Below the pieces are notes generated by a model that was not told the origin of the DNA, made no database searches, and worked only from the letters and a program-made list of their open reading frames with translations. 64,000 nt of DNA, from the NCBI GenBank assembly GCA_041659505.1, contig JBAZYF010000004.1, positions 78,922 through 142,921 of the forward strand, read 5' to 3'. Of the stretch, positions 2,601 through 62,065 are shown one piece after another. Position 1 is the first letter of the stretch, and each line of letters opens with the position of its first letter. This DNA comes from Parcubacteria group bacterium. GTDB taxonomy: Bacteria; Patescibacteriota; Minisyncoccia; Moranbacterales; UBA2206. A program made the position numbers and the translations under genes.

Positions 2601-2758
2601 TGTCATTCCCGCGAAGGCGGGAATCCAGGTTCCACTAGTTATAAATTACAACAATCGAACTATAAATCCATTAACTTCTTGTTACCAACCAGTAAATTCT
2701 GTTTTTCTTTTTCTTAAAACCTGAGGTGCCTGGATCCCCGCCTTCGCGGGGATGACAC
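2601..2758. mobile_element. MITE-like element, family A (about 160 bp; 30-bp TIR GTCATTCCCGCGAAGGCGGGAATCCAGGTTCC), copy 1
   Basis: Terminal inverted repeats at 2602-2635 and 2722-2758. Same termini at 15369, 20937 and 61899. AT-rich divergent interior. Confidence 0.8.
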
Positions 2759-2794
2759 GGGGTATGGAAATACGCCAAAAGATTAAACTTAAAT

Positions 2795-3631
2795 CTAGCA
2801 CAGATTATTAATTTTGTCCACCACCTCATCGATCAAAAATTGCGCGGTCGAAGCGCCAGCGGCGATGCCGACTATTTGTACATCTTTGAACCATTCTAAT
2901 TGTAACTCCAAAGCGGTTTCAATGTGATGCGTCGGAGTTTTTTGTGCTTCGCTTAACTGGACCAATTTTCCAGTATTACTCGAATTTTTTCCCCCAATCA
3001 CAATCATTAGATCCACAACCTTCGCCAATTCGGAAACTTCCGCTTGTTTAGTTGAGCTATCCAGACAAATGGTATTTTCCACAACCAGGTTCTTGACTTT
3101 TTCTGCCAATCCCTTGATAACATTATCTAACAACTCTTTTTTTTGCGTCGTCTGGCTGAGCACACCGACCTTGCCACCGAATTCCAGATTTTTCACGTCA
3201 TCAGCATCGTGAATTATTTTCGCTGAATCACTCGCCCACGCATTGATGCCAATCACTTCGGCATGCTGGGGATCGCCACAGATGACAACGTCGTAATTTT
3301 CCTCGTGAAATTTTTTCGCCACCAACTGTGCCCGCCTGACGAACGGACAAGTCGCGTCCAAAATCTCACCGCCTTGTGCCACAATTTTTTCCACAATTCT
3401 TGGATCAATTCCGTGACTGCGAATGAGAAACAGACTACCCGCCGGAATTTCCGCGAGCTCCCGCACAGTCACTAATCCTTTTTGCTCCAGCTTTTCAATC
3501 ACTTGTTGATTATGGATGAGCGACCCCATGCAATAGACTTTTCGTCCGCTCTCCAGCGCTTTTTCCGCCAGCTCCACCGCCCGGCGAACCCCAAAACAAA
3601 ACCCAGCATGCGTGGCAATTTTTATTTCCAT
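2795..3631 (-). CDS. ispH: 4-hydroxy-3-methylbut-2-enyl diphosphate reductase IspH/LytB
   Basis: MEIKIATHAGFCFGVRRAV... Conserved Cys ligands. Length 278 aa. Confidence 0.9.
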   Translation of the reverse strand: MEIKIATHAGFCFGVRRAVELAEKALESGRKVYCMGSLIHNQQVIEKLEQKGLVTVRELAEIPAGSLFLIRSHGIDPRIVEKIVAQGGEILDATCPFVRRAQLVAKKFHEENYDVVICGDPQHAEVIGINAWASDSAKIIHDADDVKNLEFGGKVGVLSQTTQKKELLDNVIKGLAEKVKNLVVENTICLDSSTKQAEVSELAKVVDLMIVIGGKNSSNTGKLVQLSEAQKTPTHHIETALELQLEWFKDVQIVGIAAGASTAQFLIDEVVDKINNLC

Positions 3632-3717
3632 AATTGTATCAATACGATTTACATTCTATTCCTTAAACGATTTTAGCTTATCATACGTCGGGATTTTGGA
3701 CAATTGGGTGATTACTG

Positions 3718-3756
3718 AAGGAAAATCAAAAACAGTCCCAGATAAAAAGGACTGTT
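3718..3756 (-). terminator. Rho-independent terminator after the DUF378 gene. Hairpin aacagtcc/ggactgtt with a U-tract. Also reads as a hairpin on the plus strand.
   Basis: 8-bp stem at 3731-3738 and 3749-3756. T-run rc of 3718-3730. Lies 17 bp past the stop codon at 3773. Confidence 0.5.
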
Positions 3757-3772
3757 TTCTTGATTTTTAGGC

Positions 3773-3979
3773 TTAGCTTTTTCCGAGTTTGGGGGAAATT
3801 GCCAAAACATAGATAGCGCAGATTCCAACAACAGCATAGACAATTCTGGAAAGGGCTGACATATCTCCAAAAATTGCGGCCACCAAATCAAAATTAAAAA
3901 TTCCTACCAATCCCCAGTTGAGTCCTCCGACAGCCAAAAGAATGACAGCGATCCAATCGATAGCGTTTAGTTTGTTCAT
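3773..3979 (-). CDS. DUF378-family small membrane protein
   Basis: Two TM helices. GGLNWGLVG motif typical of DUF378. Confidence 0.65.
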   Translation of the reverse strand: MNKLNAIDWIAVILLAVGGLNWGLVGIFNFDLVAAIFGDMSALSRIVYAVVGICAIYVLAISPKLGKS

Positions 3980-4604: not shown

Positions 4605-4605
4605 C

Positions 4606-5073: not shown

Positions 5074-5336
5074 TTATTTATTTTAATTTTTTATTACTGA
5101 ATTAGTTCCTGAATTTTTAATCCACCTACGCTAAAGCTCCGACGGACGAGCTAATTTTGAGCAAATTCTCCGCAGTTTGCCACGAATAGGGTCCAGGAAA
5201 AACTCTGGGGTTTTATACCTTTAATTATTTTCATAATACCACCAAGCATGCAATTACTCAAGATTGCTAAATGGCAGAAGGAAAGGCTTCATTCAAAACT
5301 AAAACAGGCGCTTTCGCGCCGAAAAAAACTAAAGTG

Positions 5337-5407
5337 TTCGGAGATAGGGATTCGAACCCCAATTAACAGAGTCAGAGTCTGTTGTCCTACCGTTAGACGA
5401 TCTCCGA
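5337..5407 (-). tRNA. tRNA-Gln (anticodon CUG)
   Basis: Hand-folded cloverleaf. 7-bp acceptor stem UCGGAGA/UCUCCGA, D arm GUCU-AACGGUA-GGAC, anticodon stem ACAGA/UCUGU with loop CUCUGAC, T arm UGGGG-UUCGAAU-CCCUA, discriminator A. No encoded CCA. Confidence 0.8.
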
Positions 5408-10039: not shown

Positions 10040-10050
10040 AAAAAAATAAT

Positions 10051-10189
10051 GTCATCCTGAGCGAAACGAAGTGGAGTCGAAGGATCTTCTTAACACTATC
10101 CAAAGCTTAATTTATATTTGCAAAGCTTGGGGTATCGGTAGGCAGATCCTTCGACTTCGTCCTGAGTACAGGACTTCGCTCAGGATGAC
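10051..10189. mobile_element. MITE-like element, family B (TIR GTCATCCTGAGCGAAGTC...CGAAGGATC), copy 1
   Basis: Inverted termini at 10051-10085 and 10150-10189. Second copy at 54376-54502. Confidence 0.75.
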
Positions 10190-10213
10190 AACATTTTTAA
10201 ATTAAAAAGTCTC

Positions 10214-11821
10214 ATGATTAAAGCTTACGACAATTTTGTTAAACTGGCAATGCAAGAGTCCGTCACTACGCCGGGAGAATTTTTGCGTGTTAAAAAAAAT
10301 GTTTCCAAAATTTTACAAATCCCCGTGCCAACCAATGCCAATCTGCGCGAGGCTTATGAAAAATTAGTCGCCCAGAAAAAAATTAAGCGTGACTTGGGAT
10401 TTGAAAACATCCTGATCAGCAAAAAAATCCGCACCCGTTCTGGCGTGGCGGTCATCGCTGTGCTCACCAAGCCCTACCCTTGTCCGGGAAAGTGTCTTTA
10501 TTGTCCGAGCGAAAAAGCCATGCCCAAGAGTTACCTAAAAAACGAACCGGCGGTGATGCGCGCCATCTCGGTCAAATTTAATCCCTACGCGCAAGTGCAA
10601 AAACGCCTGCGCGCGCTAGAGCTGAACGGTCACAAGACGGACAAAATCGAACTGATCGTGATGGGCGGAACGTTTTCCTATTTTCCCAAAAAATATCAAA
10701 ATTGGTTTGTCACAGAATGTTTTCGCGCGGTGAATGATTATGGTCATGTAGCCCGTAGAGACGCATTGCGATGCGTCTCTACCACGTTAGGCCGCGAACA
10801 GAAAAAAAACGAAAAGGCCCAGCGACGGATCATTGGATTGACCCTCGAGACTCGCCCGGATTATATCGATGAAAAAGAAATTTTAAATTTTCGCACGCTG
10901 GGTTGCACCCGAGTGGAGCTCGGTGTGCAAAGCATTTTTGATGACGTGCTTACGAAAAATAATCGCGGACACGATGTGGCCGAAACAATCCGCGCCACCA
11001 AGCTTCTCAAAAACGCCGGCTTCAAAATCAACTATCACATTATGCCCGGACTCTATGGATCAGACGAGAAGAAAGATTATCAGATGTTCAAAACGCTTTT
11101 TTCTTCACCGGATTTTCAGCCGGATATGCTCAAAATTTATCCGACAGTCGTTCTGCGTGACAGCACGCTCTATGACATCTGGAATAGAGGCCTCTATAGA
11201 GGCCTCGATGATCAGCAGTTTGAAAAATTCATCTTGCGCGTCAAAAAAAATCTCATCCCGCCCTACGTCCGCATCGCGCGACTCGTGCGGGATGTGCCTG
11301 CCGAATCGATCATTGCAGGACCGATCATTTCCAATTTGCGCCAAATGATCGCCGAAAAATCTCAGTGCCAATGCATTCGCTGTCGAGAAGTCGGTGGAAA
11401 TTTCAATTTACAAGACGAACTGATATTAAACCGCATCGACTATGACGCCTCGGATGGAAAAGAAATATTTTTGGAATATACAACAAGTGATAGAAAAAAA
11501 ATATTCGCCCTTTTACGCCTGAGGATAAATGGAGATTCGACCTACATAACGGAGGTCGAACCTCCACAAGTTCTCAAAAATTCCGCCATCATCCGCGAAG
11601 TGCATACATACGGAACAATGACCGAGATCGATAAGAAAAATAGTAAATCCCCGCAACATATCGGCCTCGGGAAAAAACTGATCGCAGAAGCGGAAAAAAT
11701 TGCCCGGCAGGAATTCGGCCTCAAAAAAATCGCCATCATTTCCGGCATCGGCGCGAGGGAATATTATCGCAAACTTGGTTATCGCTTAAAAGATAGTTAT
11801 ATGGTAAAATACATACACTAA
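10214..11821 (+). CDS. elp3: Elp3-family radical SAM plus GNAT acetyltransferase (tRNA U34 carboxymethylation homolog)
   Basis: KPYPCPGKCLYCPSE and EPAVMRAI align to eukaryotic/archaeal Elp3 (KPHRCPH...CVYCPGG, EPTSMRAI). C-terminal GNAT region. Confidence 0.8.
   Translation: MIKAYDNFVKLAMQESVTTPGEFLRVKKNVSKILQIPVPTNANLREAYEKLVAQKKIKRDLGFENILISKKIRTRSGVAVIAVLTKPYPCPGKCLYCPSEKAMPKSYLKNEPAVMRAISVKFNPYAQVQKRLRALELNGHKTDKIELIVMGGTFSYFPKKYQNWFVTECFRAVNDYGHVARRDALRCVSTTLGREQKKNEKAQRRIIGLTLETRPDYIDEKEILNFRTLGCTRVELGVQSIFDDVLTKNNRGHDVAETIRATKLLKNAGFKINYHIMPGLYGSDEKKDYQMFKTLFSSPDFQPDMLKIYPTVVLRDSTLYDIWNRGLYRGLDDQQFEKFILRVKKNLIPPYVRIARLVRDVPAESIIAGPIISNLRQMIAEKSQCQCIRCREVGGNFNLQDELILNRIDYDASDGKEIFLEYTTSDRKKIFALLRLRINGDSTYITEVEPPQVLKNSAIIREVHTYGTMTEIDKKNSKSPQHIGLGKKLIAEAEKIARQEFGLKKIAIISGIGAREYYRKLGYRLKDSYMVKYIH
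10755..10782. repeat. 28-bp palindrome (11-bp perfect stem GTAGAGACGCA/TGCGTCTCTAC) inside the elp3 coding sequence. Member of the GTAGAGACG hairpin family.
   Basis: Same arms as the intergenic hairpins at 19191-19314 and 53010-53038. Encodes ...RRDALRCVST... in a variable Elp3 region. Confidence 0.7.
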
Positions 11822-14229: not shown

Positions 14230-15357
14230 TTGCCCACATGCCCCTGCCACTTCTTGCCCCAGACTTTTTCTGATTGTTACACTCATTCCACCTTTTTCTA
14301 AAAAGTCTTTGAAAAGGTGTGTTTTATTGCCAGATGATGCTTTAAATTCTTCTCCGGTTTCATTATAAGCGATTAGGTTTACATGCAAAAGTTGACGATG
14401 ACCGATTGATTTGAGATAGGTCGAAAGCGCGTAGGCATCTTCTTCACTGTCGTTGATGCCGGAAAGCAGTACATACTCAAAAAATATCTGCCGATTTGTT
14501 TTGGAAAAATAATCCTTGAGTGCTCCTTTCAACTCTTCTAAATTGTATTTTTTATTGATCGGCATAAACCGGTTTCTTTTTTCATCGGTCGCGAAATGCA
14601 GAGAAATTGCCAGATTGATTTGCGGAAATTCTTCGGCCAAGTTTTTTAACCCCTCAGGAATTCCAGCTGTTGAAACGGAAATGCTGCGCGAACCAAATGC
14701 AAATAAATTTTTATCCACGAGGTCACGCAAACTTTTTTTCACTTCCTCCCAATTCAAAAAAGGCTCCCCCATTCCCATATAAACAATATTACTAATCTGC
14801 CCCCTCTCCTTGATAAGGAGATTCTGATTCTGCCAGGTGACAGAATCAGAGGGGTGAGGTGCATTTTTTTCTTGTTCACTGTTCCCTGTTCCCTGTTTTC
14901 TGATGTACTGTCTCCAAAACAAAACCTGATCCGTGATTTCTTCCGCCGTCAGATTTCTTTGCAGTCCGCCTTTTCCTGTTGCACAAAAACTACAGTTCAA
15001 AGGACAGCCAACTTGCGAAGAAATGCAGACCGACCACTTTTTTTCCCCGCCTGCAACGCTATGCGTAGCATTGCGGGCAGGCATTGGAGATAACAAAACA
15101 GATTCGATTTTGTTTCCGTCAGCTAATTTCAAAAGAGCTTTCAAAGAACTCTTATCTTTTGATACTAAAACTTTTTCCACCTCGAAGGATAAAATTTTCA
15201 TTTCTTTCTCTAGTGTCTCGCGTAAATTTTTGGAAATCGTTGAGATTTCTGAAAAATCAGAAACGCCATCCTGATAGATGGCTTTTTGGATCTGGCTCAA
15301 GCGAAATTTCAGCTCGCCATTGTCAGTGAGGATTTTTTTTAGTTTTTCGAGTTGCAT
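14200..15357 (-). CDS. rlmN: 23S rRNA (adenine2503-C2) methyltransferase RlmN (radical SAM), carrying two in-frame palindromic insertions
   Basis: CISSQVGCPLNCSFCATG radical-SAM cluster. GMGEP motif. Start set at MQLEKLKK: the upstream 16 codons of the listed ORF are encoded by the MITE-A terminus (RLRGND = rc of GTCATTCCCGCGGAG). Confidence 0.85.
   Translation of the reverse strand: MQLEKLKKILTDNGELKFRLSQIQKAIYQDGVSDFSEISTISKNLRETLEKEMKILSFEVEKVLVSKDKSSLKALLKLADGNKIESVLLSPMPARNATHSVAGGEKKWSVCISSQVGCPLNCSFCATGKGGLQRNLTAEEITDQVLFWRQYIRKQGTGNSEQEKNAPHPSDSVTWQNQNLLIKERGQISNIVYMGMGEPFLNWEEVKKSLRDLVDKNLFAFGSRSISVSTAGIPEGLKNLAEEFPQINLAISLHFATDEKRNRFMPINKKYNLEELKGALKDYFSKTNRQIFFEYVLLSGINDSEEDAYALSTYLKSIGHRQLLHVNLIAYNETGEEFKASSGNKTHLFKDFLEKGGMSVTIRKSLGQEVAGACGQLAGNKLKIF
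14801..14854. repeat. Composite palindromic element in frame inside rlmN. Outer arms CCCCTCT/AGAGGGG. Inner palindromes CTCCTTGATAAGGAG and CTGATTCTG...CAGAATCAG.
   Basis: Nested inverted repeats. Falls within a 25-aa segment absent from E. coli RlmN, between QVW and NVV(M)MGMGEP. Confidence 0.6.
15046..15081. repeat. 36-bp near-perfect palindrome CCCGCCTGCAACGCTATGCGTAGCATTGCGGGCAGG in frame in rlmN, encoding PARNATHSVAGG. Identical copy in gpmI.
   Basis: Exact 36/36 identity with 49662-49697. 16 of 18 positions self-complementary. Confidence 0.85.
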
Positions 15358-15368
15358 AAATAATTTAG

Positions 15369-15539
15369 TGTCATTCCCGCGGAGGCGGGAATCCAGACAC
15401 CTCAAGTTTTAAAATAAAGAGAAAGCAAATTACTAAAATTCAAGGTTTACTGAAGTAGAAAACTAATCCGACTTGCAGCTCGATTTTTCAGAGATTATAG
15501 CTGGTGGAACCTGGATTACCGCCTTCGCGGGAATGACAC
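15369..15539. mobile_element. MITE-like element, family A, copy 2
   Basis: TIRs GTCATTCCCGCGGAGGCGGGAATCCAG / CCTGGATTACCGCCTTCGCGGGAATGACAC. Confidence 0.8.
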
Positions 15540-15890: not shown

Positions 15891-16826
15891 TTAAAGTTCA
15901 CTGAGACTCGCAAGTCTTGCAAATTCTTCATTCACGATTTTTTGCATCCGCGCCAGAACCGGTTTATTTTTTTCCGAGAAAAGATGTTTGAATCGGCCTT
16001 GGGTTTTCAAAAATTCGCTCACTGGTTTTAGGGTTTTTGGTTCATAATTTAGCGTATACTTTCTGCTTTCTCCGCCCAAGGCGGATCCGCCTTGGGCGGA
16101 AATTTCATAGAGCGGCCAAAAATTTGTTTCTGTCGCCAATTTGGCAATCGCCACATATTGCGAGGTGGGAAATTTCCAATTATTCGTGCACGGTGAAAAG
16201 ACTGTGAGAAAGCTTGGCCCATCGACTGCTAAGGCTTTTTTGGCTTTCATTTTGAGGTCCGCAATGTTTGCAATATTGGCTTGTGCGGCATAGGAGATAT
16301 TATGCGCCGCCACAATGCCCATCAAATTTTTGCGCATCTCGACTTTGCCAAAAGATTCTTTTCCGACTGGTGTCGTTTCTGTTCCCGCGCCATAAGGCGT
16401 CGCGGACGATCTTTGATTGCCCGTGTTCATATACCCCCCATTATCATAGACAACGTAGAGAAAATTGTGCCCGCGCTCAAGTGCACCGGACAATGCTTGC
16501 AGTCCAATGTCGTAGGTTCCCCCGTCTCCGCCAAAGGCAACAAACTTAATTTTCTTTTTGATCCTGCTTTTTTTTCGCATAAACTGATAAGCTCTTTCCA
16601 CACCAGAAATCGTCGCCGCCGCGTTTTCAAATGCGCTGTGGATATATGGTACGTTCCAGGCGGTGTAGGGATAGATAGTCGAAGTCACCTCAAGACATCC
16701 TGTTGCATTGGAAATCACTACCGGCGTAGTCGCCTCGCCCAAAATCGTCCTGACAATTGAAGGAAACGCACACCCCGCGCAAGCGCTATGACCGGGGGCT
16801 AGGTTTTTTGCTAAATTTTTGTTCAT
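15891..16826 (-). CDS. porB: Pyruvate/2-oxoacid:ferredoxin oxidoreductase beta subunit (TPP-binding)
   Basis: GHSACAGCAFPS Cys motif. TPP motif GGDGGTYDIG...NGGYMNTGNQ. Confidence 0.9.
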   Translation of the reverse strand: MNKNLAKNLAPGHSACAGCAFPSIVRTILGEATTPVVISNATGCLEVTSTIYPYTAWNVPYIHSAFENAAATISGVERAYQFMRKKSRIKKKIKFVAFGGDGGTYDIGLQALSGALERGHNFLYVVYDNGGYMNTGNQRSSATPYGAGTETTPVGKESFGKVEMRKNLMGIVAAHNISYAAQANIANIADLKMKAKKALAVDGPSFLTVFSPCTNNWKFPTSQYVAIAKLATETNFWPLYEISAQGGSALGGESRKYTLNYEPKTLKPVSEFLKTQGRFKHLFSEKNKPVLARMQKIVNEEFARLASLSEL

Positions 16827-16877
16827 CTATTTTCTATTAGTTCTGCTAAATATATCGCGATTTTTTATTTAAATTCT

Positions 16878-17028
16878 CTTCTCCCTCCGGGAGAAGGTGG
16901 CCAAAGGCCGGATGAGGGTGCCCTCAGAAACACAAAAGCTTAATTTAATTGATTGTTTTTTCTGTATTGGCAAGAACCCTCACCTGTCACGAGTACGTGA
17001 CATCCTCTCCCGGAGAGAGAAGAGGCTA
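16878..17028. mobile_element. MITE-like element, family E (TIR TCTCCC(T)TCCGGGAGAAGGTGGCC...), inserted between porB and porA
   Basis: Inverted termini. Second copy at 26262-26412 with the same GGTGGCC(A/G)AAGGCCGGATGAGGG core. Confidence 0.7.
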
Positions 17029-18477: not shown

Positions 18478-18485
18478 AAAATTCG

Positions 18486-18577
18486 TCTGAACCACTGATT
18501 AGCACTGAGGGCACGTGATTTTACGTGAATAAAAATCAGTGAAATCAGGATAATCAGGTGCTAATCAGTGGTTCTGA
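18486..18577. mobile_element. MITE-like element, family C (20-bp TIR TCTGAACCACTGATTAGCAC, about 95 bp), between porD and porG
   Basis: Perfect inverted termini. Internal CACGTGATT/AATCAGTGAAATCAGG motifs shared with copies at 23697, 24850 and 50431. Confidence 0.8.
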
Positions 18578-18578
18578 T

Positions 18579-19148: not shown

Positions 19149-19185
19149 AGGATTAGTATAGCATAAAATTTAAATTGGTTGTAGA

Positions 19186-19315
19186 GACGAGGCATTGCCT
19201 CGTCTTGGCATTATTGGTTTATGCTCTAATATTGTTTGTTTTTTAGACGAGGTGGTGCCTCGTCTCTACAATTATTGCTAGGCACAAAAAAGACGCCCCA
19301 ACGGGGCGTCTCTAC
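19186..19315. repeat. Cluster of three GTAGAGACG-family hairpins. The last (AGACGCCCCAACGGGGCGTCT plus U-tract on the minus strand) is the probable terminator of the thioredoxin-fold gene.
   Basis: Hairpins at 19195-19216, 19244-19268 and 19291-19314. Outer arms GTAGAGACG (19191) / CGTCTCTAC (19261). Confidence 0.7.
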
Positions 19316-20922: not shown

Positions 20923-20936
20923 AATTTTCAGTCCAT

Positions 20937-21103
20937 GTCATTCCCGCAAAGGCGGGAATCCAGGTTCCACTAGTTTTAAATTTTAGAAAACCGAATTATA
21001 AATCTTCTAGCTTTTTATTATATAAAGTTTATTTCAAAATAATTTGTTTTATCGATATTTTTAGCCTGAGGTGCCTGGATCCCCGCCTTCGCGGGGATGA
21101 CAC
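20937..21103. mobile_element. MITE-like element, family A, copy 3
   Basis: TIRs GTCATTCCCGCAAAGGCGGGAATCCAGGTTCC / GGTGCCTGGATCCCCGCCTTCGCGGGGATGACAC. Confidence 0.8.
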
Positions 21104-23692: not shown

Positions 23693-23696
23693 AAAG

Positions 23697-23797
23697 TCTG
23701 AACCACAAGATTAGCACTGATTTTCCTGATTGCACGTGATTATGGTTTTTAAAATTCAGTGAAATCAAGTGTAATCAGTGATAATCAGTGGTTCTGA
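23697..23797. mobile_element. MITE-like element, family C, copy 2 (between the ABC ATPase and permease genes)
   Basis: TIR TCTGAACCAC...GTGATAATCAGTGGTTCTGA. Confidence 0.8.
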
Positions 23798-24526
23798 TTA
23801 TTTCAATAACTCATTCTCTCCATCCGCAATCCGCCGATGCTTCACCGGGTCATCAGCAATAATACTGCCGTCTTTGACGTAGATAATACGTTTGGCGTGT
23901 TCGGCAGTATATGTTTCATGCGTGACTAAAATTACGGTATGTCCTGTGTCATTCAGTTTTTGTAAAATCCGCATCACCTGGAGGCCGGATTTCGAGTCCA
24001 AGTTCCCTGTCGGTTCATCAGCAAAAATCACTTCCGGATCATTGACCAGCGCCCGCGCAATTGCCACGCGTTGCTTTTCGCCGCCCGAGAGTTGATTGGA
24101 AAAATATTTCGCGCGATGCTCCATCCCAACAGCCAACAGCGCATCCATCACTTTTTTTTCATTGCTTTTTCCCGGCTTTTCATCATAGAGCAAGGGCAAC
24201 TCCACATTTTCAAAAACCGAAGTGCGAGAAAGTAAATTAAAAGATTGAAAAACAAAACCAATCTTTTTGTTCCGGATTTTCGCCAACGTATCATCATCGA
24301 AAGAAAAAGTGTCACGTCCTTCAAAAAAATATTTCCCTTCCGTCGGCCGGTCAAGTAGTCCCAAAATTTGCATCAAAGTCGATTTACCGGAACCGGACGG
24401 ACCCATGATGGAAATAAATTCCCCTTTTTGAATTTCAAAGGTCGCGCCACAAAGCGCCCGCGTTTCCACGCCTTCACTGGAATAAGTTTTACAAAGATTT
24501 TGAACTTGAATTAGGGGGTTTGACAT
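23798..24526 (-). CDS. ABC transporter ATP-binding protein (MacB/LolD-type)
   Basis: Walker A GPSGSGKST. Signature LSGGEKQRVAIARAL. Walker B IFADEPTGNLD. Confidence 0.9.
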   Translation of the reverse strand: MSNPLIQVQNLCKTYSSEGVETRALCGATFEIQKGEFISIMGPSGSGKSTLMQILGLLDRPTEGKYFFEGRDTFSFDDDTLAKIRNKKIGFVFQSFNLLSRTSVFENVELPLLYDEKPGKSNEKKVMDALLAVGMEHRAKYFSNQLSGGEKQRVAIARALVNDPEVIFADEPTGNLDSKSGLQVMRILQKLNDTGHTVILVTHETYTAEHAKRIIYVKDGSIIADDPVKHRRIADGENELLK

Positions 24527-24767: not shown

Positions 24768-24849
24768 CCGTCGCCCAATAGCGACAAGAGCATATCCATG
24801 CGTCAGCAAAAAATTGCTACGAACAACATGGATGTGCTTTTTCTTTTTG

Positions 24850-24947
24850 TCTGAACCACTGATTCTCACTGAGTGCACGTGATTTCACTGAATTTAGAAT
24901 TCAATCATGTGTAATCAGTAAAATCATGTGCTAATCAGTGGTTCTGA
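24850..24947. mobile_element. MITE-like element, family C, copy 3 (between the adaptor and ATPase genes)
   Basis: TIR TCTGAACCACTGATT...AATCAGTGGTTCTGA. Confidence 0.8.
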
Positions 24948-24950
24948 TAA

Positions 24951-26264: not shown

Positions 26265-26412
26265 TTCTCCCTTAGGGAGAAGGTGGCCGAAGGCCGGATG
26301 AGGGAGAAGCCTTTCTGTGTAGGAAAAACTTATTTTATAGATAGGTTACTGTTTATTTTTAGCCCTTTCCCTCACCTGTCCTCCGGACATCCTCTCCCTA
26401 AGGGAGAGGAGG
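26262..26412. mobile_element. MITE-like element, family E, copy 2
   Basis: TIRs CTTCTCCCTTAGGGAGAAGGTGGCC / CCTCTCCCTAAGGGAGAGGAGG. Confidence 0.7.
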
Positions 26413-48798: not shown

Positions 48799-48800
48799 AT

Positions 48801-48842: not shown

Positions 48843-50426
48843 CTAGCTTAGCAAAGAATTTTTGGCCATTAATTTTGGCTTTTCTATTTCCAAAATATCC
48901 AAAATAGTCGGCGCAATGTTGCCCAGCACTCCCCCGTCTCTCAGTTTTTTATCTTTAAGTTTTTCGCTAATGATCAAAAAGGGCACAGGATTTTTTGTGT
49001 GATAGGTATTGGGCTGGTCACTGCTAAAGTCGATCATGTCATCCGCGTTGCCATGATCTGCGGTAATAATCAAGTTTCCCTGAAGCTCTAAAACTTTTTT
49101 CGCCAATCGTTCGATTTGCTTATCCAAAAATTCTACCGCTTTAATTGTTGCGCCAAGATCTCCGGTATGTCCGACCATATCCGCGTTAGCATAATTGACT
49201 GCAATGAAATCGTATTCATTTTTTTCCAGCACTTCCAAAATTTTGTCCGTTATTTTTTCCGCCGACATCTCCGGAACTTCGGCGTAGGAATCAACAATGG
49301 GAGATTTGATCATAATCCGCATTTCCCCTCCGACCGGATCAGCGTAGCCACCGTTAAGAAAATAGGTCACGTGGGCGAATTTTTCTGACTCAGCGATATA
49401 TAGTTGGCGAATATCCCCCAGCACCATAGGCAAAGTGGCCGAGATTGTATATTCCGGAAAAGCCGTATGCTCATCCAAGCCAGGACCAAAATCAGTCAGT
49501 GCGACGAAATATAAATTTCCAATCTTGTCGATAACTGGCATATCATCACGCAGGATGCTTTTTTCATCATTGGCGATAAATAATTTACTGAATTGCCTGG
49601 CGCGGTCAGAACGGAAATTATAGAAAACTAAGGCGTCGTCTTTTTTGATCTGCGCTACAGGCCCGCCTGCAACGCTATGCGTAGCATTGCGGGCAGGTGC
49701 ACTATTCTCCAGAATGACTGTCGGCAAGAGATACTCGTCTGTTAGTCCAGCAGTGTAGGCTCTTTCAATCGCCTCCTCAGCGCTGTTAGCTTTTTCACCG
49801 CGCGCAAAAACGGCCGCGTCATAGGCCAAGGTCAACCGTTTCCAATTTTTGGCCCGATCCATCGCATAGAACCGGCCAGAAAGAGTTGCAATCTTTCCAA
49901 TTCCCTCTTCTTTTATTATCCGTCGGAAATATTTCAGATGTTCTAGTGCACTCCTAGGATAAGAATCCCGTCCATCTGTAAACAAATGGCAATAAACTTC
50001 CTTGACGCCATTTTTTTTGGCTAATTTGAGAATCGCGCGAAAATGCTCCGGATCACTGTGCGGACTGTCGCCATTACCCATCAGCCCCATCAGATGAAAG
50101 TTGCCACCGGTTTTTTTCACATGCTTCACCGCGCCGATCATCGCAGGATTCATAAAAAAACTGCCATCTTTGATGCTATCAGTGATATATTTCGAGTCCT
50201 GTGGCACGATCCGACCGGCACCGATATTCATATGCCCCGCTTCCGAACCACTCATCTTGTGATCAGGTAGTCCCACGCAAGTTCCCGTCGCGCAAAGTGT
50301 CGTGGAAGGATAAAGATCGAATAACCGATCAATTGTCGGTTTTTTTGCGAGAGTAATCGCGTTGCCTTTGCCCGGCGGAGCGATACCGTAGCCGTCGAGG
50401 ATTACTAGGAGAGTTGGTGTTTTCAT
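48843..50426 (-). CDS. gpmI: 2,3-bisphosphoglycerate-independent phosphoglycerate mutase, carrying the in-frame PARNATHSVAGG palindromic insertion
   Basis: MKTPTLLVILDGYGI... iPGM N-terminus. Metal ligands. 36-bp element at 49662-49697. Confidence 0.9.
   Translation of the reverse strand: MKTPTLLVILDGYGIAPPGKGNAITLAKKPTIDRLFDLYPSTTLCATGTCVGLPDHKMSGSEAGHMNIGAGRIVPQDSKYITDSIKDGSFFMNPAMIGAVKHVKKTGGNFHLMGLMGNGDSPHSDPEHFRAILKLAKKNGVKEVYCHLFTDGRDSYPRSALEHLKYFRRIIKEEGIGKIATLSGRFYAMDRAKNWKRLTLAYDAAVFARGEKANSAEEAIERAYTAGLTDEYLLPTVILENSAPARNATHSVAGGPVAQIKKDDALVFYNFRSDRARQFSKLFIANDEKSILRDDMPVIDKIGNLYFVALTDFGPGLDEHTAFPEYTISATLPMVLGDIRQLYIAESEKFAHVTYFLNGGYADPVGGEMRIMIKSPIVDSYAEVPEMSAEKITDKILEVLEKNEYDFIAVNYANADMVGHTGDLGATIKAVEFLDKQIERLAKKVLELQGNLIITADHGNADDMIDFSSDQPNTYHTKNPVPFLIISEKLKDKKLRDGGVLGNIAPTILDILEIEKPKLMAKNSLLS
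49662..49697. repeat. Second copy of the 36-bp in-frame palindrome (identical to 15046-15081), inside gpmI
   Basis: Exact identity. Encodes PARNATHSVAGG in the same reading orientation. Confidence 0.85.
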
Positions 50427-50430
50427 AATA

Positions 50431-50537
50431 ACTGAACCACATGATTAGCACGTGATTTTCCTGATTACACATGATTTTGAATTTTGATTATTCCCTTCAG
50501 TGAAATCAGTGTTTTCAGTGATAATCAGTGGTTCTGA
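50431..50537. mobile_element. MITE-like element, family C, copy 4. Fills the whole gpmI-eno spacer.
   Basis: TIR CTGAACCACATGATTAGCAC...GTGATAATCAGTGGTTCTGA. Confidence 0.8.
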
Positions 50538-50541
50538 TTTT

Positions 50542-51795: not shown

Positions 51796-51844
51796 AAATT
51801 TAATATTTTTTTATTCTAATTTCATAACTCTATTAATTATTCTC

Positions 51845-51955
51845 TGCAGTGCCACATTTCCATTCAGTGAAATCAGATTAATCGGTGCTTACCCGCCTTC
51901 GTTAAAACTATGGCGAGGCAAGGTCAGTGGTTCAGACATTCTATTCCCGGCATCG
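51845..51955. repeat. Degenerate MITE family-C copy with an inserted CCGCCTTCG-type hairpin. Its right terminus supplies the last 5 codons and the stop of pgk.
   Basis: TTCAGTGAAATCAGATTAATC...GGTCAGTGGTTCAGAC similar to family-C interior and TIR. Overlaps pgk codons ...ECLNH*. Confidence 0.5.
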
Positions 51956-53009: not shown

Positions 53010-53038
53010 AAATAACGCTGTAGAGACGCCCCAGCGGG
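53010..53038. repeat. GTAGAGACGCCCCAGCGGGGCGTCTCTAC hairpin (GTAGAGACG family) between glyA and pgk
   Basis: Perfect 12-bp stem. Same family as 19291-19314. Confidence 0.7.
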
Positions 53039-53085
53039 GCGTCTCTACAAAAATACATCCTTGTTTTAATAGATTTATAGTTACC

Positions 53086-54330: not shown

Positions 54331-54375
54331 ACATTTGTAATTTGTTTTCAGAACCTACGCTTTTTAATTAAGTAT

Positions 54376-54502
54376 GTCATCCTGAGTGAAGTCGAAGGAT
54401 CTACTTTCCATTATCGTAAGCCTTATTGTTAAGCAGACAACTCTGGGTTACGGTTAGCAGATCCTTCGACTACGTCCAAGTACGGACTTCGCTCAGGATG
54501 AC
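54376..54502. mobile_element. MITE-like element, family B, copy 2
   Basis: TIRs GTCATCCTGAGTGAAGTCGAAGGATC / GATCCTTCGACTACG...CGCTCAGGATGAC. Confidence 0.75.
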
Positions 54503-54547
54503 ACAATTTAGTTATTTTTTTTGGTGAATGCGTGAGTTCAAATATTA

Positions 54548-59647: not shown

Positions 59648-59661
59648 AAATTTATCTCACG

Positions 59662-61005
59662 TTAACCAGAGTAACGTAAAAGCAAAAGTAACTCCACTTC
59701 TTTGGCGATTTTTGTCGCTGTCCTTTTATCAAAATCAAGCCCCTCATGCTTTGCGGAGATATCCATTATTTTTTCAAACTCTTCTTTGCCGATTCGATTT
59801 TCCAGTCGATCTATGAGCGCCCCGACTAGTAGGCTATTTCTAGCCTCGTCTAAATTTAACTTTAATTTAAAATTGAGATACTCCGCCAACTCCTGCGCCG
59901 TCTTATTTTTTTCTGTGAAACTGATTTTTGACGCCTGCATGACCATTTGCTGAATTTCGGCGGAAAATCGTTCTGCGATACGCTTATCCCAGCCCGCGCC
60001 GCCCTGTTCAACTGGCATATCCAAATCTTTCAGGAAACTTTCAAAATTTATTTTGGAATAAAGAAAATCTTCCAATTTTTTGATGGCTTTTTCGATCTGA
60101 TCATTAGTCATGGAAAAAAACAGATGGGAGAAAATCTGTTGCGCCTTGAATGGCACTAAGAGATTTCCTACCTGGCTGCCCGTAAGACCGCGAAATGACC
60201 GCATCAGATGGCGCAGATCAAGTGGAATATATTCCTCCTTGAAGAAATCGTCCCGCACTTTTCCATCCTTGAAAACAAAACTTTCCGCCGGTGCAATTTT
60301 TTGCTTTTTGACCAGCTCGATTTTGATTATCTTGCCATCGCGCATATGCACGATTTTGTCACCAAAGACCAAGTGAGCTGGATCATGCGTCACTAAAATG
60401 ACGGTCTTTTTGTCAATCTCATTTAAGTCTTTAAGGATCGACATCACAATGTGGGAAGATTTGGAATCAAGATTTCCTACCGGCTCATCCGCCAGGATTA
60501 TTTCCGGATCATTGACCAGTGCGCGCGCGATAGAAACACGTTGCTTTTGACCACCGGAAAGTTCCGAAGGGAATTTATCCGCCTGATTAGAAATATTAAA
60601 CCGCTCCAGAAGTTCCAACGCTTTGATTTTTCGTTCGGACATCTTTACGCCATCGAAGGTTTTGGGCAGACAAACATTGTCCAGGATAGTCAACGATCCA
60701 ATCAGATAGAAAGCTTGAAAAACCATCCCCATTTTCCGGCGATGAAACCAAGCCATCTGTTTTTTGGAATAAGCGCTGATGTCTTCTCCATCAATCATCA
60801 CCGCGCCACTGGTCGGTTTTTGTAAGCCGGAAATCGTGTAGAGCAGGGTTGATTTTCCACAACCAGAAGGGCCGAAAATGATTACAAACTCCTCGGGAAA
60901 AATTTCCAAGCTGACTTCTTCCAATGAACGCATCTCATTGAGCTTGCCCTGATTGTAGATCACATTGACTTCCTTGACTGTAATATTGGGTACTTCGTTT
61001 GGCAT
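59662..61005 (-). CDS. ABC transporter ATP-binding protein with an approximately 200-aa alpha-helical C-terminal domain of unknown function
   Basis: Walker A GPSGCGKST. LSGGQKQRVSIARAL. Walker B ILADEPVGNLD. Residues about 245-447 have no recognisable family. Confidence 0.85.
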   Translation of the reverse strand: MPNEVPNITVKEVNVIYNQGKLNEMRSLEEVSLEIFPEEFVIIFGPSGCGKSTLLYTISGLQKPTSGAVMIDGEDISAYSKKQMAWFHRRKMGMVFQAFYLIGSLTILDNVCLPKTFDGVKMSERKIKALELLERFNISNQADKFPSELSGGQKQRVSIARALVNDPEIILADEPVGNLDSKSSHIVMSILKDLNEIDKKTVILVTHDPAHLVFGDKIVHMRDGKIIKIELVKKQKIAPAESFVFKDGKVRDDFFKEEYIPLDLRHLMRSFRGLTGSQVGNLLVPFKAQQIFSHLFFSMTNDQIEKAIKKLEDFLYSKINFESFLKDLDMPVEQGGAGWDKRIAERFSAEIQQMVMQASKISFTEKNKTAQELAEYLNFKLKLNLDEARNSLLVGALIDRLENRIGKEEFEKIMDISAKHEGLDFDKRTATKIAKEVELLLLLRYSG

Positions 61006-61137
61006 TCTAGTTTATCTTTAACTAATTGCATATCCAATATTATACCACGCAACGGAAGCAAAACAAAATTATTTCTTTACGACTTACGCGTTTACCAAAA
61101 AATAAGCTTGCTGTTAGCAAACACATAAGTCTTCTTA

Positions 61138-61824
61138 CTAGATAAACTTATGCAAAACTTTTTCCGCCGCTTTAAGATCATCCGGACTGCCGATAGCATG
61201 CCAGGCCGTCGCTTTTTCCACTTTAACATCGTAATCGCGAGCCATCACGGCCAGCGTTTGGGGCAAACCAAATTCGATATCTCCGGCCTTTTTAGGAATC
61301 AAATCATAATCAAAAAATTTTTTATTCAAAACATACGCACCGGCATTTGCAAGCTTGTCCTTTGATCGCAACGGGTTTTCAATCACATCAATCATACGCC
61401 CATTTTTATTGGTTTTAATAATCCCGCACTTGCTCACATCCTCAACCTCATAACCCAGAATCGCTAGGTCATGCCTCAGCATCCGCTTCAAATCTTTTTT
61501 ATGATAGAGATCATCGCCCATAATAACCAAAAATTTGTCTTTAAGAACGCTCCGCGCCAAATGCAACGCTCCACCCGTGCCATTCATTTTGTCTTGATAG
61601 ACATAGATAATTCGCCGTCCGGCAAAATACCTTTTAAAATGCCGAATGATATAGTCACCGGCATAGCCGATAATAAAAACAATCTCCTTAATTTCTTTTG
61701 GGAGCATATTAATCTTGTGCTCCAAGATCGGCTTGCCTTTCAATTTGAGCATCGGCTTGGGAATTTCATCGGTCAGCTTTTTCATCCGTTTTCCCCGTCC
61801 GGCCGCTAGGATTACTGCTTGCAT
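61138..61824 (-). CDS. Sugar-phosphate nucleotidyltransferase (NTP_transferase family)
   Basis: MQAVILAAGRGKRM...PKPML G-rich loop typical of RmlA/GlmU-like enzymes. Confidence 0.8.
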   Translation of the reverse strand: MQAVILAAGRGKRMKKLTDEIPKPMLKLKGKPILEHKINMLPKEIKEIVFIIGYAGDYIIRHFKRYFAGRRIIYVYQDKMNGTGGALHLARSVLKDKFLVIMGDDLYHKKDLKRMLRHDLAILGYEVEDVSKCGIIKTNKNGRMIDVIENPLRSKDKLANAGAYVLNKKFFDYDLIPKKAGDIEFGLPQTLAVMARDYDVKVEKATAWHAIGSPDDLKAAEKVLHKFI

Positions 61825-61898
61825 AGATAAATTGTTTAACCAATTAAATCCTGTAATAAATCCACTGTCCTTCTGATAAGATACAACCTGAAAAAATT

Positions 61899-62065
61899 GT
61901 CATTCCCGCGAAGGCGGGAATCCAGGTTCCTCTGGCTATGAACTCTAGAAAATCGAGCCACAAGTCTGGCAAGTTCTATATTTCAGTTAGTCTTGAATTT
62001 TAATAATTCGTTTTTCTTTATTTTTCACCTGGGGTGCCTGGATCCCCGCCTTCGCGGGGATGACA
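61899..62065. mobile_element. MITE-like element, family A, copy 4
   Basis: TIRs GTCATTCCCGCGAAGGCGGGAATCCAGGTTCC / GGTGCCTGGATCCCCGCCTTCGCGGGGATGACA. Confidence 0.8.

What the first reader, a model, noticed from the sequence alone, without database searches (positions are those of the whole stretch)
2601..62065. Exceptionally high density of MITE-like elements (5 families, about 17 copies in 64 kb) inside operon spacers
The families are:
- Family A, about 165 bp, 30-bp TIR GTCATTCCCGCGAAGGCGGGAATCCAGGTTCC: copies at 2601, 15369, 20937 and 61899.
- Family B, TIR GTCATCCTGAGCGAAGTC: copies at 10051 and 54376.
- Family C, about 100 bp, TIR TCTGAACCACTGATTAGCAC: copies at 18486, 23697, 24850 and 50431, plus a degenerate copy at 51845.
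- Family D: GTAGAGACG hairpins.
- Family E, about 150 bp, TIR CTCCCTTAGGGAGAAGGTGGCC: copies at 16878 and 26262.

They occupy essentially every spacer longer than 90 bp, including spacers inside operons (porB|porA, porD|porG, macA|ATPase|permease, gpmI|eno|pgk). They often abut stop or start codons directly. No transposase is present in the window. For such a streamlined genome this is a remarkable load of non-autonomous elements. They may double as terminators or processing sites.
Basis: seen in the sequence. Interest (0 to 1): 0.6.

Follow-up and report, generated by a model that had tools for sequence, protein, structure and literature searches.

The report
Hairpin repeat families crowding a CPR genome
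A tiny Candidatus Moranbacteria genome carries several families of short hairpin-forming repeats, between operon genes and in frame inside core enzyme genes; they belong mostly to known REP, NTS and RPE-type palindromic repeats rather than classical transposase-derived MITEs, so this is a new host for a known kind of selfish DNA.

Summary
The repeats are real and sit at the stated coordinates. All fold into long hairpins (z -6 to -11). They are present or absent in sister genomes, so they are discrete insertions.

Two claims are overstated. Structured elements fill 13 of 25 spacers of 80-330 nt, not "essentially every" one. Their load is 3.7% of the DNA, against 1.0-4.2% in relatives.

"MITE-like" holds only loosely. 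Families A, B and E show no target-site duplication, and no cognate insertion sequence was found.
- **Family A** ends match the published 28-nt NTS/SRM motif (also called dRS3 or CGTC-1 REP). This is the ssDNA site of the small GIY-YIG nuclease SsnA. I reproduced that gene-repeat link independently in 80 metagenome loci.
- **Family D** is a GTAG-tagged REP. A RAYT-like gene next to a GTAG hairpin occurs in a relative.
- **Family E** ends recur at 84-93% identity in Rhizobium and Xanthomonas.
- **Family C** is lineage-specific and is the only family that could be a classical MITE.

The window holds no mobilising enzyme. Verdict: a new member of known kinds, in a candidate-phyla-radiation host. 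Moderately interesting.

The parts
2601..2758 (+). Family A copy 1: head-to-head dimer of NTS/CGTC-1-type hairpins (TGTCATTCCCGCGAAGGCGGGAATCCAG ... CTGGATCCCCGCCTTCGCGGGGATGACA) around a spacer of about 100 nt. Lies between ispH/lytB and a pseudouridine synthase gene.
   Evidence: z -8.8; both ends match the SRM regex
15369..15539 (-). Family A copy 2, inverted relative to the other copies. Fills the MGMT-domain gene|rlmN spacer (12 nt from the stop, 11 nt from the start). A copy sits in the same spacer in relative L004.
   Evidence: (z -7.4)
20936..21103 (+). Family A copy 3, between macB2 and a hypothetical gene. Absent from the same spacer in L007 and L004.
   Evidence: (z -8.5)
61898..62066 (+). 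Family A copy 4, 6 nt after the leuS stop. Followed by a T-run on the sense strand.
   Evidence: (z -9.9)
10050..10190 (.). Family B copy 1 (TGTCATCCTGAGCGAA... ends, TGTC-tagged composite hairpins). Lies in the divergent spacer between a methyltransferase gene and the Elp3-like gene.
   Evidence: D9; z -9.7
54375..54503 (.). Family B copy 2, between the Nramp and SHMT genes. Related copies occur in L007 at other sites.
   Evidence: z -8.5
18485..18578 (.). Family C copy 1, filling the porG|porD spacer. This spacer is 4 nt in relative L002.
   Evidence: (z -8.4)
23696..23798 (.). Family C copy 2, between the ABC ATPase and macB1 genes. Abuts the TAA stop codon.
   Evidence: (z -7.2)
24849..24948 (.). 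Family C copy 3, 2 nt after the macA stop codon.
   Evidence: (z -7.4)
50430..50538 (.). Family C copy 4, filling the eno|gpmI spacer (3 nt from the stop, 3 nt from the start).
   Evidence: (z -6.1)
51840..51890 (.). Partial, one-armed remnant of family C in the pgk|eno spacer. It does not fold.
   Evidence: z +1.1
10755..10782 (.). Family D (GTAG-tagged REP hairpin) in frame inside the Elp3-like gene. It reads ..VARRDALRCVST.. At the same codon position, L007 carries a 78-nt family-A dimer.
   Evidence: I18
19181..19269 (.). Family D head-to-head dimer (GTAGAGACGAGGCA...TGCCTCGTCTCTAC) in the dsbA-like|porG spacer.
19287..19315 (-). Family D single hairpin followed by TTTTTT on the sense strand. 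Terminator-like, 20 nt after the dsbA-like stop codon.
53020..53048 (.). Family D single hairpin GTAGAGACGCCCCAGCGGGGCGTCTCTAC in the glyA|pgk spacer.
   Evidence: z -7.5; I11
16876..17024 (.). Family E copy 1 in the porA|porB spacer. Relatives have a 23S_rRNA_IVP gene or other genes at this position.
   Evidence: D15; z -10.7
26262..26412 (.). Family E copy 2 in the RNase H|macA spacer. Its 41-47-nt end is 84-93% identical to repeats in Rhizobium, Sinorhizobium, Shinella and Xanthomonas.
   Evidence: (z -8.4)
15046..15081 (-). 36-nt palindrome ('family F') in frame in rlmN. It adds PARNATHSVAGG and is absent from the L004 and L007 orthologues.
   Evidence: (D19)
49662..49697 (-). Identical 36-nt palindrome in frame in gpmI (iPGM). 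Exact 36-nt insertion relative to L210 and L211. An identical copy sits at the same site in L212.
16071..16100 (-). Perfect 30-nt palindrome in frame in porB (SAQGGSALGG). Absent in L002 and L007, present in L004.
   Evidence: (I2)

Best explanation
The window comes from a Candidatus Moranbacteria (CPR/Patescibacteria) genome. It has been colonised by several unrelated families of REP-class hairpin repeats: selfish, non-autonomous palindromic DNA recognised as single-stranded hairpins. These are not deletion derivatives of DDE-transposase insertion sequences.

- **Family A.** A head-to-head dimer of the NTS / Ssn-related motif (also known as the dRS3 core or CGTC-1 REP), with a spacer of about 100 nt. 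The whole unit of about 168 nt is copied together.
- **Partner enzyme of family A.** Elsewhere in bacteria this is SsnA, a 94-aa GIY-YIG nuclease. SsnA binds the hairpin on ssDNA and cuts a few nt outside it. Its gene is typically enclosed by two inverted copies of the motif.
- **Family D.** A GTAG-tagged REP, the substrate class of RAYT (IS200-like Y1) transposases.
- **Families B and E.** Composite hairpin-ended units of the same general design, with unknown enzymes.
- **Family C.** A lineage-specific unit bounded by 20-bp terminal inverted repeats (TIRs). It may be a true MITE.

Insertions survive only where they do no harm. That means the few nucleotides between operon genes, and tolerated positions inside proteins when the insert is in frame. 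The second case is the behaviour known from Rickettsia palindromic elements.

**Shown here:** identity of the motifs, hairpin folding, presence/absence in relatives, in-frame copies, and the link between the GIY-YIG gene and the motif.

**Taken from the literature:** the ssDNA cleavage by SsnA.

**Inferred:** that an Ssn- or RAYT-type enzyme encoded elsewhere in this genome, or supplied in trans, spreads these copies.
For: 1. **Host.** PorA and iPGM homologues are named Moranbacteria or Parcubacteria.
2. **Family A matches the published motif.** All eight family-A ends are within 1-3 mismatches of the 28-nt NTS consensus. Six match the published SRM pattern, against 0.2 expected. The motif definitions come from PMC11893778 and the CGTC-1 description from PMC3733652.
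3. **The motif is cross-phylum.** The exact 27-mer occurs in at least 120 stretches from many phyla, including other Patescibacteria. It is mostly found as inward-facing pairs 54-393 nt long with unrelated inner sequence. It also occurs in gonococcal NIMEs.
4. **Independent test of the enzyme link.** I chose 80 metagenome loci by GIY-YIG protein similarity alone. An A-type end lay upstream in 41, downstream in 45 and on both sides in 35. Of 76 evaluable loci, 59 had a flanking inverted repeat.
5. **The hairpin is under selection.** Stem covariation gave 95.8% paired cells. Seven of 8 pairs showed compensatory changes, and 0 of 500 shuffles reached this.
6. **Family A moves as a unit.** Copies are homologous over their whole length, with ends 84-99% and inner part 46-79% identical.
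7. **Insertion polymorphism.** The same spacers are filled differently in relatives.
8. **No target-site duplication.** The iPGM insert is exactly 36 nt.
9. **Family D.** It has the GTAG tag plus a perfect stem. A relative has a Y1_Tnp / REP_Tyr_transpos-like gene immediately followed by GTAGGGGCGG..CCGCCCCTAC.
10. **In-frame copies** are verified against orthologues.
Against: - No ssnA, RAYT or other nuclease/transposase gene lies in the 64 kb. The rest of the genome could not be read.
- Transposition by SsnA has never been shown. Its published role in Neisseria is restriction of transforming ssDNA.
- In a head-to-head dimer only one end per strand is in the cleavable orientation. Simple excision of a single strand is therefore not explained.
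- The RAYT-linked hairpin in the relative has a different stem from family D. That protein also scores below NCBIfam's curated cut-off (66.5 against 80 bits).
- Families B, C, E and the small palindromes have no identified enzyme.
- Family C carries TCAGA at both ends of every copy. This could be a site-specific target duplication of a true MITE.
Confidence: 0.65

Rival explanations
1. Classical MITEs: internally deleted insertion sequences, mobilised in trans by a DDE transposase encoded elsewhere (for example IS630/Tc1 or IS5-like).
For: - The units are TIR-bounded, 90-170 bp, non-coding, multi-copy and insertion-polymorphic.
- Family C has a clean 15-20-bp TIR. Every copy has the same pentamer TCAGA outside both arms, and each lies 0-4 nt after a TAA stop. 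This would fit a site-specific target duplication.
Against: - A, B and E show no direct repeats at their borders.
- The exact 36-nt and 30-nt intragenic inserts have none either.
- No transposase is in the window.
- No transposase family recurs beside 120 family-A loci.
- Family A ends are themselves conserved hairpins with compensatory changes, identical to the Ssn site.
- Family C was found in no other sequence held, so no cognate IS is known.
Confidence: 0.15
2. Host-serving structural elements rather than selfish DNA. The hairpins would be kept because they act as terminators, mRNA stabilisers or RNase III processing sites between operon genes. Alternatively they could act as Ssn recognition sites that police incoming single-stranded DNA.
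For: - All units are very stable hairpins on the transcribed strand and sit between co-oriented genes.
- D2c and A4 are followed by U-runs.
- In Neisseria the NTS/SsnA pair modulates transformation.
- REPs lie mostly downstream of ORFs and are thought to act as RNA elements.
Against: - The same spacer is empty, or filled by an unrelated family or a gene, in sister genomes with the same operon. No position therefore needs a given element.
- Only 2-3 of 15 units have a U-run.
- Copies also lie inside coding sequences and in a divergent promoter spacer.
- No Rfam family matches.
Confidence: 0.15
3. Assembly or binning artefact: chimeric joins or collapsed repeats in a metagenome-assembled genome.
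For: The source is a MAG, and repeats are classic break points for assemblers.
Against: - Copies of one family differ from each other (inner identity 46-79%), and each has unique flanks inside intact operons.
- An independent Logan assembly (L001) reproduces the porG-C1-porD-porA stretch.
- Related copies occur in independently assembled relatives from NCBI, JGI and ENA.
Confidence: 0.01

Closest known systems
NTS / Ssn-related motifs (SRM) with the SsnA GIY-YIG ssDNA endonuclease (Chenal et al. 2025, PMC11893778)
   Same: Family A ends match CGTCATTCCCGCGMAVGCGGGAATCYRG with 1-3 mismatches, and 6 of 8 match the SRM pattern. They share the 8-bp AT-first stem, 4-nt loop and oriented flanks. They have the inverted-pair arrangement that encloses ssnA genes elsewhere.
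   Different: - The tag is TGTC, not CGTC.
- The pair encloses about 100 nt of non-coding, family-specific sequence, not a gene.
- The right arm is consistently the ATCCCC/GGGGAT variant.
- No ssnA lies in the window.
- The host is a CPR bacterium, a group the paper does not mention.
- One relative carries a copy in frame in a gene.
CGTC-1 REPs, Neisseria dRS3/NIME and Rickettsia RPE-6 (Di Nocera et al. 2013, PMC3733652; Bentley et al. 2007, PMC1797815)
   Same: Tag, stem, loop and CCA tail are shared. So are the predominance of head-to-head dimers, location close to the 3' ends of ORFs, and occasional intragenic copies. The dRS3-RS-dRS3 unit of NIMEs has the same layout.
   Different: - Units here are isolated, not arranged in arrays.
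- The phyla listed for CGTC repeats did not include Patescibacteria.
- NIMEs were thought to be specific to Neisseria.
GTAG REPs / REPINs with RAYT transposases
   Same: Family D has the unpaired GTAG tag, a 9-13-bp GC-rich stem and a short loop. It occurs as singletons and as one head-to-head dimer. A RAYT-like gene with an adjacent GTAG hairpin occurs in a relative.
   Different: - No RAYT lies in the window.
- The relative's hairpin has a different stem.
- One copy is in frame inside a gene.
Rickettsia palindromic elements (RPE). That they insert in frame in protein genes is from my own knowledge of Ogata et al. 2000; they are cited in PMC3733652.
   Same: Palindromic repeats are inserted in frame in housekeeping genes without breaking them. 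Here these are RlmN, iPGM, PorB and the Elp3-like gene.
   Different: - The inserts are much shorter (28-36 nt, against about 100-150 nt for RPE-1).
- The host phylum is different.
- Direct sequence relatedness to RPE families was not tested here.
Bacterial MITEs such as Correia elements (my own knowledge; reviewed in PMC10969869, listed but not read)
   Same: Size, terminal inverted repeats, intergenic position, hairpin-forming transcripts and non-autonomy.
   Different: There are no target-site duplications for families A, B and E. There is no cognate IS, and the ends are self-folding hairpins.

Membership tests
NTS / SRM (Ssn-related motif) = CGTC-1 REP | 28-nt consensus CGTCATTCCCGCGMAVGCGGGAATCYRG, or the degenerate SRM pattern | tested here: met
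   All 8 family-A ends are within 1-3 mismatches of the consensus. Six of 8 match the SRM pattern, against 0.2 matches in shuffles.
NTS / SRM (Ssn-related motif) = CGTC-1 REP | Unpaired CGTC (or TGTC) tag, 8-bp stem starting with AT, 4-nt loop, CCA tail, and a hairpin kept by compensatory change | tested here: met
   The sequence reads TGTC-ATTCCCGC-GAAG-GCGGGAAT-CCAG. Left arms (ATTCCC) and right arms (ATCCCC) each keep their own pairing. Across 54 distinct ends, 95.8% of cells are paired and 7 of 8 pairs covary.
NTS / SRM (Ssn-related motif) = CGTC-1 REP | Mostly organised as head-to-head dimers | tested here: met
   All four copies are inward-facing pairs.
NTS / SRM (Ssn-related motif) = CGTC-1 REP | A cognate ssnA (GIY-YIG cd10448) gene in the same genome, usually flanked by the motif | not testable with these tools
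   None is present in the 64 kb. The source contig could not be fetched beyond the window. The link itself was reproduced in other genomes.
NTS / SRM (Ssn-related motif) = CGTC-1 REP | Binding and cleavage by Ssn on single-stranded DNA only | not testable with these tools
   This is biochemistry, shown for Neisseria and Wolbachia homologues in PMC11893778.
GTAG REP / RAYT system | GTAG tag followed by a short perfect palindrome, multi-copy, occurring as singletons and dimers | tested here: met
   GTAGAGACG occurs 7 times against 0.1 expected. The hairpins have z -4 to -7.5.
GTAG REP / RAYT system | A RAYT gene flanked by the same REPs | tested here: inconclusive
   The window has none. In relative L211 a Y1_Tnp protein (36 bits, above the Pfam cut-off of 23; REP_Tyr_transpos 66.5 bits, below its cut-off of 80) is followed by a GTAG hairpin with a different stem.
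Classical MITE (DDE-transposase derivative) | Terminal inverted repeats, small size, no coding capacity | tested here: met
Classical MITE (DDE-transposase derivative) | Target-site duplication flanking each copy | tested here: not met
   Families A, B and E have no flanking direct repeats in the window. The 73 family-A pairs from other genomes have none either. Family C is ambiguous, with TCAGA at both ends of all copies.
Classical MITE (DDE-transposase derivative) | A full-length IS with the same termini | tested here: not met
   None was found in the window, in the Moranbacteria relatives' loci held (L001-L008, L210-L212), or beside 120 family-A loci. The whole genome was not available.
Rickettsia palindromic elements (behaviour) | Palindromic repeat inserted in frame in a functional protein gene and absent from orthologues | tested here: met
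   RlmN +12 aa, iPGM +12 aa (exactly 36 nt), PorB +10 aa (exactly 30 nt), and an Elp3-like GTAG hairpin.
Rickettsia palindromic elements (behaviour) | Sequence homology to a named RPE family | not tested
   The only link is the literature statement that CGTC-1 equals RPE-6.
NIME (neisserial intergenic mosaic element) | dRS3 (ATTCCCN8GGGAAT) inverted repeats flanking a 50-150-bp RS, clustered in arrays | tested here: inconclusive
   The unit layout is met. Left arms fit dRS3 exactly, and right arms are ATCCCCN8GGGGAT. Arrays are absent: all four copies are solitary.

The most novel reading that the evidence does not exclude
Hairpin repeats whose 27-47-nt ends are identical or nearly identical to those of Proteobacteria (family A: exact 27-mer; family E: 84-93%) are actively invading a CPR lineage. 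This would imply recent cross-phylum spread of Ssn/NTS-type and other hairpin elements, perhaps through DNA uptake, with the mobilising nuclease supplied in trans by another replicon, a phage or the host bacterium. Different families repeatedly land at the very same spacer and even the same codon position. Examples are the Elp3-like gene (GTAG hairpin here, NTS dimer in L007) and one iPGM site with three insert variants. That pattern would point to a structure-directed insertion mechanism without target duplication that has not yet been described.
Probability: 0.15. Interest if true: 0.7.

Novelty: new member of a known kind. Interest (0 to 1): 0.45.

Why it matters
- **Hosts.** CPR/Patescibacteria genomes are about 1 Mb and are regarded as streamlined. 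Even so, about 43% of this window's intergenic DNA is hairpin repeats, and several core enzymes (PorB, iPGM, RlmN, an Elp3-like protein) carry them in frame.
- **Range of the known families.** The finding extends NTS/CGTC-1 and GTAG REPs to a new superphylum. The NIME-like unit, once thought specific to Neisseria, turns out to be general.
- **Annotation.** The elements generate spurious ORFs and over-extended starts. The ORF list here extends rlmN, porD and macA into elements. They also add odd loops to protein models.
- **Material for an open question.** How CGTC-type repeats and RPE-like inserts spread is unsolved. This clade offers natural filled and empty sites, including exact 30- and 36-nt inserts in conserved codons.

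Tried and rejected
- **Target-site duplications.** I inspected the borders of all window copies and of 73 family-A pairs from other genomes. The only regularity was Y|GTCAT...ATGAC|R.
- **Recurrent neighbour genes.** Clustering ORFs from 120 family-A loci gave only housekeeping families. No DDE, IS110 or RAYT family recurred.
- **GIY-YIG link as a new finding.** I first took it for new, then found it published (PMC11893778). It now stands as an independent replication.
- **Literature searches.** Exact sequence, 'MITE + candidate phyla radiation', 'GIY-YIG + REP' and COG2827/UPF0213 returned nothing useful.
- **Family B against plasmids.** No match.
- **Family C TIR in viral contigs.** Nine single hits, all the same unrelated segment with no partner arm.
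- **Family F palindrome in viral contigs.** None.
- **Rfam.** Only tRNA-Gln.
- **Whole-genome census.** Impossible, because the look-up of a window protein returned only a 2.2-kb contig.
- **AlphaFold model of iPGM.** Mean pLDDT was 61.8. The 12-aa insert falls in a coil between strands, but confidence is too low to call it a surface loop.
- **Exact empty sites for A3 and C1.** Relatives are about 10% diverged, so the junctions are only approximate.

Full report
**Observation**

Family A has 4 matches against 0 expected, B has 3, C has 6 and E has 3. GTAGAGACG occurs 7 times against 0.1 expected. An unbiased repeat search recovers the same families.

Reading every spacer gave refined borders; these are listed under 'parts'. 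Each unit folds into one long rod-like hairpin, with z = -6 to -11 against shuffles. The half-copy of family C at 51840-51890 does not fold.

Pfam confirms the gene context: porG|porD|porA|porB, RNase H|macA|ABC ATPase|macB1|macB2 and glyA|pgk|eno|gpmI. It finds no transposase, Y1 or GIY-YIG gene anywhere in the window. Rfam finds only tRNA-Gln.

The units do fill their spacers. C1 lies 0 nt from the porG stop and 7 nt from the porD start. C2 is -1/3, C4 3/3, A2 12/11 and E2 9/12.

Two statements are too strong. Only 13 of 25 spacers of 80-330 nt are strongly structured. The load is 2312 nt, which is 3.7% of the span and 43% of intergenic DNA. Two sister genomes match it at 4.1% and 4.2%; three others have 1.0%.

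**Host and comparative evidence**

PorA and iPGM homologues are 84-91% identical to proteins of Candidatus Moranbacteria/Moraniibacteriota MAGs. I fetched orthologous loci from relatives and read their spacers.

The same junctions are filled differently in different genomes:
- **porG|porD:** 4 nt in L002, family C in the window, an ion-channel gene in L004, and a PDDEXK_3 gene in L007.
- **porA|porB:** family E in the window, a 23S_rRNA_IVP gene in L002 and L007, and three genes in L004.
- **A3:** missing from L007 and L004, although the neighbouring terminator is conserved.
- **Family B:** sits between the hypothetical and dsbA-like genes in L007, where the window has 36 nt.
- **MGMT-domain gene|rlmN:** holds family A in the window and in L004, but a different TIR element in L007.

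So these are discrete insertions, and the junctions are hot spots or the only permissive sites. Independent assemblies reproduce them, which excludes an artefact.

- **RlmN and iPGM.** An identical 36-nt palindrome lies in frame in both and reads PARNATHSVAGG in each.
  - Orthologues in L004, L007, L210 and L211 lack it.
  - In iPGM the difference is exactly those 36 nt, between GCA and CCT.
  - L212 has the identical 36 nt at the same site, although the flanking codons have diverged.
  - Other Moranbacteria iPGMs carry a longer nested insert there, or inserts elsewhere.
- **PorB.** It carries a perfect 30-nt palindrome (SAQGGSALGG) that is absent from L002 and L007.
- **Elp3-like gene.** It carries a family D hairpin in frame. 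At the same codon position, L007 carries a complete 78-nt family-A dimer, reading ..CHSREGGNP..LDSRLRGND...

This is the behaviour known from Rickettsia palindromic elements.

**What family A is**

The exact 27-mer GTCATTCCCGCGAAGGCGGGAATCCAG occurs in at least 120 stretches. These come from Proteobacteria, Planctomycetota, Chloroflexota, Nitrospirota, Gemmatimonadota, Zixibacteria, a Rickettsia endosymbiont and several other Patescibacteria. It usually forms inward-facing pairs of 54-393 nt whose inner sequence is unrelated between genomes. It also matches gonococcal NIMEs.

In two of those pairs the arms enclose a 95-aa GIY-YIG ORF. Every GIY-YIG ORF found in those 120 genome loci abutted an arm.

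As an independent test I collected 80 metagenome loci by GIY-YIG protein similarity alone.
- An A-type arm in the outward orientation lay within 120 nt upstream in 41 loci, downstream in 45 and on both sides in 35. The wrong orientation was seen in only 6 and 9.
- Of 76 evaluable loci, 59 had some flanking inverted repeat, typically CGTCAT-stem-loop-stem-ATCCAG.
- Ends chosen only by their GTC...C[CT]AG anchors show a covarying 8-bp stem. Paired cells were 95.8%, 7 of 8 pairs had compensatory changes, and 0 of 500 shuffles reached this.

The literature then showed that this is already known.
- Di Nocera et al. 2013 defined CGTC-tagged REPs. CGTC-1 equals dRS3 and RPE-6. They are mostly head-to-head dimers, have intragenic copies, and had 'no dedicated transposase'.
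- Chenal et al. 2025 defined the 28-nt NTS and its degenerate SRM pattern.
  - They showed that SsnA, a 94-aa GIY-YIG protein, binds the NTS on ssDNA only and cuts a few nt upstream of it.
  - They found ssnA flanked by SRMs on both sides in 42% of homologues.
  - They noted that the arrangement looks like an insertion sequence.

All eight family-A arms in the window are within 1-3 mismatches of the NTS. Six match the SRM pattern, against 0.2 expected.

What is particular here:
- The tag is TGTC.
- The left arm is consistently ATTCCC and the right arm ATCCCC.
- The inner sequence of about 100 nt is itself homologous among copies (46-79%, against 84-99% for the arms). The dimer is therefore copied as one REPIN/MITE-like unit.

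**The other families**

- **Family D** has the GTAG tag and perfect stem of classical REPs. It occurs as three single hairpins and one head-to-head dimer.
  - One intergenic single (19287-19315) carries a U-run, and one single lies inside a gene.
  - In relative L211, a 204-aa Y1_Tnp / REP-associated-transposase-like protein is followed directly by GTAGGGGCGGTTCATGAACCGCCCCTAC.
- **Family E** arms of 41-47 nt are 84-93% identical to repeats in 180 plasmid or chromid records of Rhizobium, Sinorhizobium, Shinella and Xanthomonas. In Xanthomonas sacchari a unit of the same build sits between sufB and sufC. I found no name or enzyme for it.
- **Family B** carries the TGTCAT tag and composite hairpins. 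It occurs in L007 but not in plasmids.
- **Family C** was found only in this organism.
  - It has a clean TIR and TCAGA outside both arms of every copy, and each copy follows a TAA stop by 0-4 nt.
  - It is the one family for which a classical MITE remains plausible.

**Mechanism**

Shown here: hairpin ends under structural selection, no target duplications, whole-unit copying, presence/absence polymorphism, and tolerance only in spacers or in frame.

From the literature: Ssn cleaves ssDNA beside the NTS, and RAYTs act on GTAG REPs.

Inferred: copies spread through single-stranded intermediates, using such enzymes encoded outside the window or supplied in trans.

Weak points:
- No enzyme lies in the 64 kb.
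- Transposition by Ssn has never been shown.
- Only one arm per strand of a head-to-head dimer is cleavable.
- Nothing is known for families B, C, E and the small palindromes.

A general terminator role is unlikely, because only A4 and D2c, plus B1 in a divergent spacer, are followed by U-runs. Processing or stabilising roles were not testable.

**Verdict**

'MITE-like' is acceptable as a description of shape, not of origin. The families are new members of known kinds (NTS/CGTC-1 REP dimers, GTAG REPs, RPE-like intragenic palindromes) in a CPR host.

The points of interest are the host, the in-frame copies in core enzymes, the re-use of the same sites by unrelated families, and the near-identity of the arms across phyla.

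Noticed in passing
window 5336-5559: tRNA-Gln (5336-5407, minus strand) is followed by an exact 20-nt duplicate of its 5' end: CCGTTAGACGATCTCCGAAT at 5390 and again at 5540. The 130 nt in between are rich in GC palindromes. It looks like an insertion that rebuilt the gene end through a long target duplication. L002:12507-12690 (tRNA end) and the macB 3' end in L004 (about 30-nt duplication) look similar.
   Followed up: partly
L002, L004, L007 (por operon spacers); L007:14240-14494: In relatives the same operon junctions hold small stand-alone genes bounded by their own inverted repeats. These are 23S_rRNA_IVP (four-helix-bundle) genes with AT-rich TIRs, a PDDEXK_3 gene, and an 84-aa GIY-YIG gene flanked by the 17-bp repeat CCCGCACTAACTTTTGC. 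L004 even has a 344-aa ion-channel gene between porG and porD. ORF-less AT-rich TIR units occupy other spacers in L004, L007, L211 and L212.
   Followed up: partly
window 14823-14850, 11530-11566, 11184-11209: Further near-perfect palindromes lie inside rlmN and the Elp3-like gene. They fall in segments that align poorly with orthologues, for example rlmN ..SDSVTWQNQN... They are probably additional in-frame palindromic inserts.
   Followed up: partly
L007:11646-12650 (PorB orthologue); iPGM homologues P0132, P0154, P0163: Other Moranbacteria carry different in-frame inserts. PorB has a four-fold tandem TLRQAQDG repeat. In iPGM one homologue has a nested palindrome (PACNAMPARPSATIAFRAGSDAASSGERSIAG) and two have ARLDSQESIVDARQ at a second site. 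Several have C-terminal extensions that read into elements.
   Followed up: partly
window 39695-48600: Five tandem paralogous genes of 512-665 aa share conserved N- and C-terminal segments (repeat families D1-D3). Pfam finds nothing in the two paralogues scanned except a weak beta-helix hit in a third. They are likely surface proteins. A palindromic motif TTACTTGCCTTGTTACGTAACA recurs upstream at 39647-39677 and 48794-48824.
   Followed up: no
window 15357-15405, 18477-18495, 26249-26264: Mechanical ORF calls for rlmN, porD and macA extend into family A, C and E arms. They give spurious N-termini such as LRCLDSRLRGNDTK. Translating the arms yields the peptides VIPAKAGIQ, SFPRRRES and LDSRLRGND, which I recall seeing in many 'hypothetical proteins' in databases.
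   Followed up: partly
window 50427-50430, 23693-23695, 18478-18484: The gpmI, macB1 and porD start codons lie only 3-7 nt from the base of a very stable family C hairpin. That leaves no room for a Shine-Dalgarno sequence outside the element. How these genes are translated is unexplained.
   Followed up: no
L210:8968-9285, L007:1278-1500: Small palindromes of the family F type (for example CCCGCCTGCAACGCTTCGCGTAGCGATACGGGCAGG and CCTGCCTACCGGCAGGCAGG) are nested inside the arms of family E and B copies in a relative. The palindromes therefore insert into one another.
   Followed up: no
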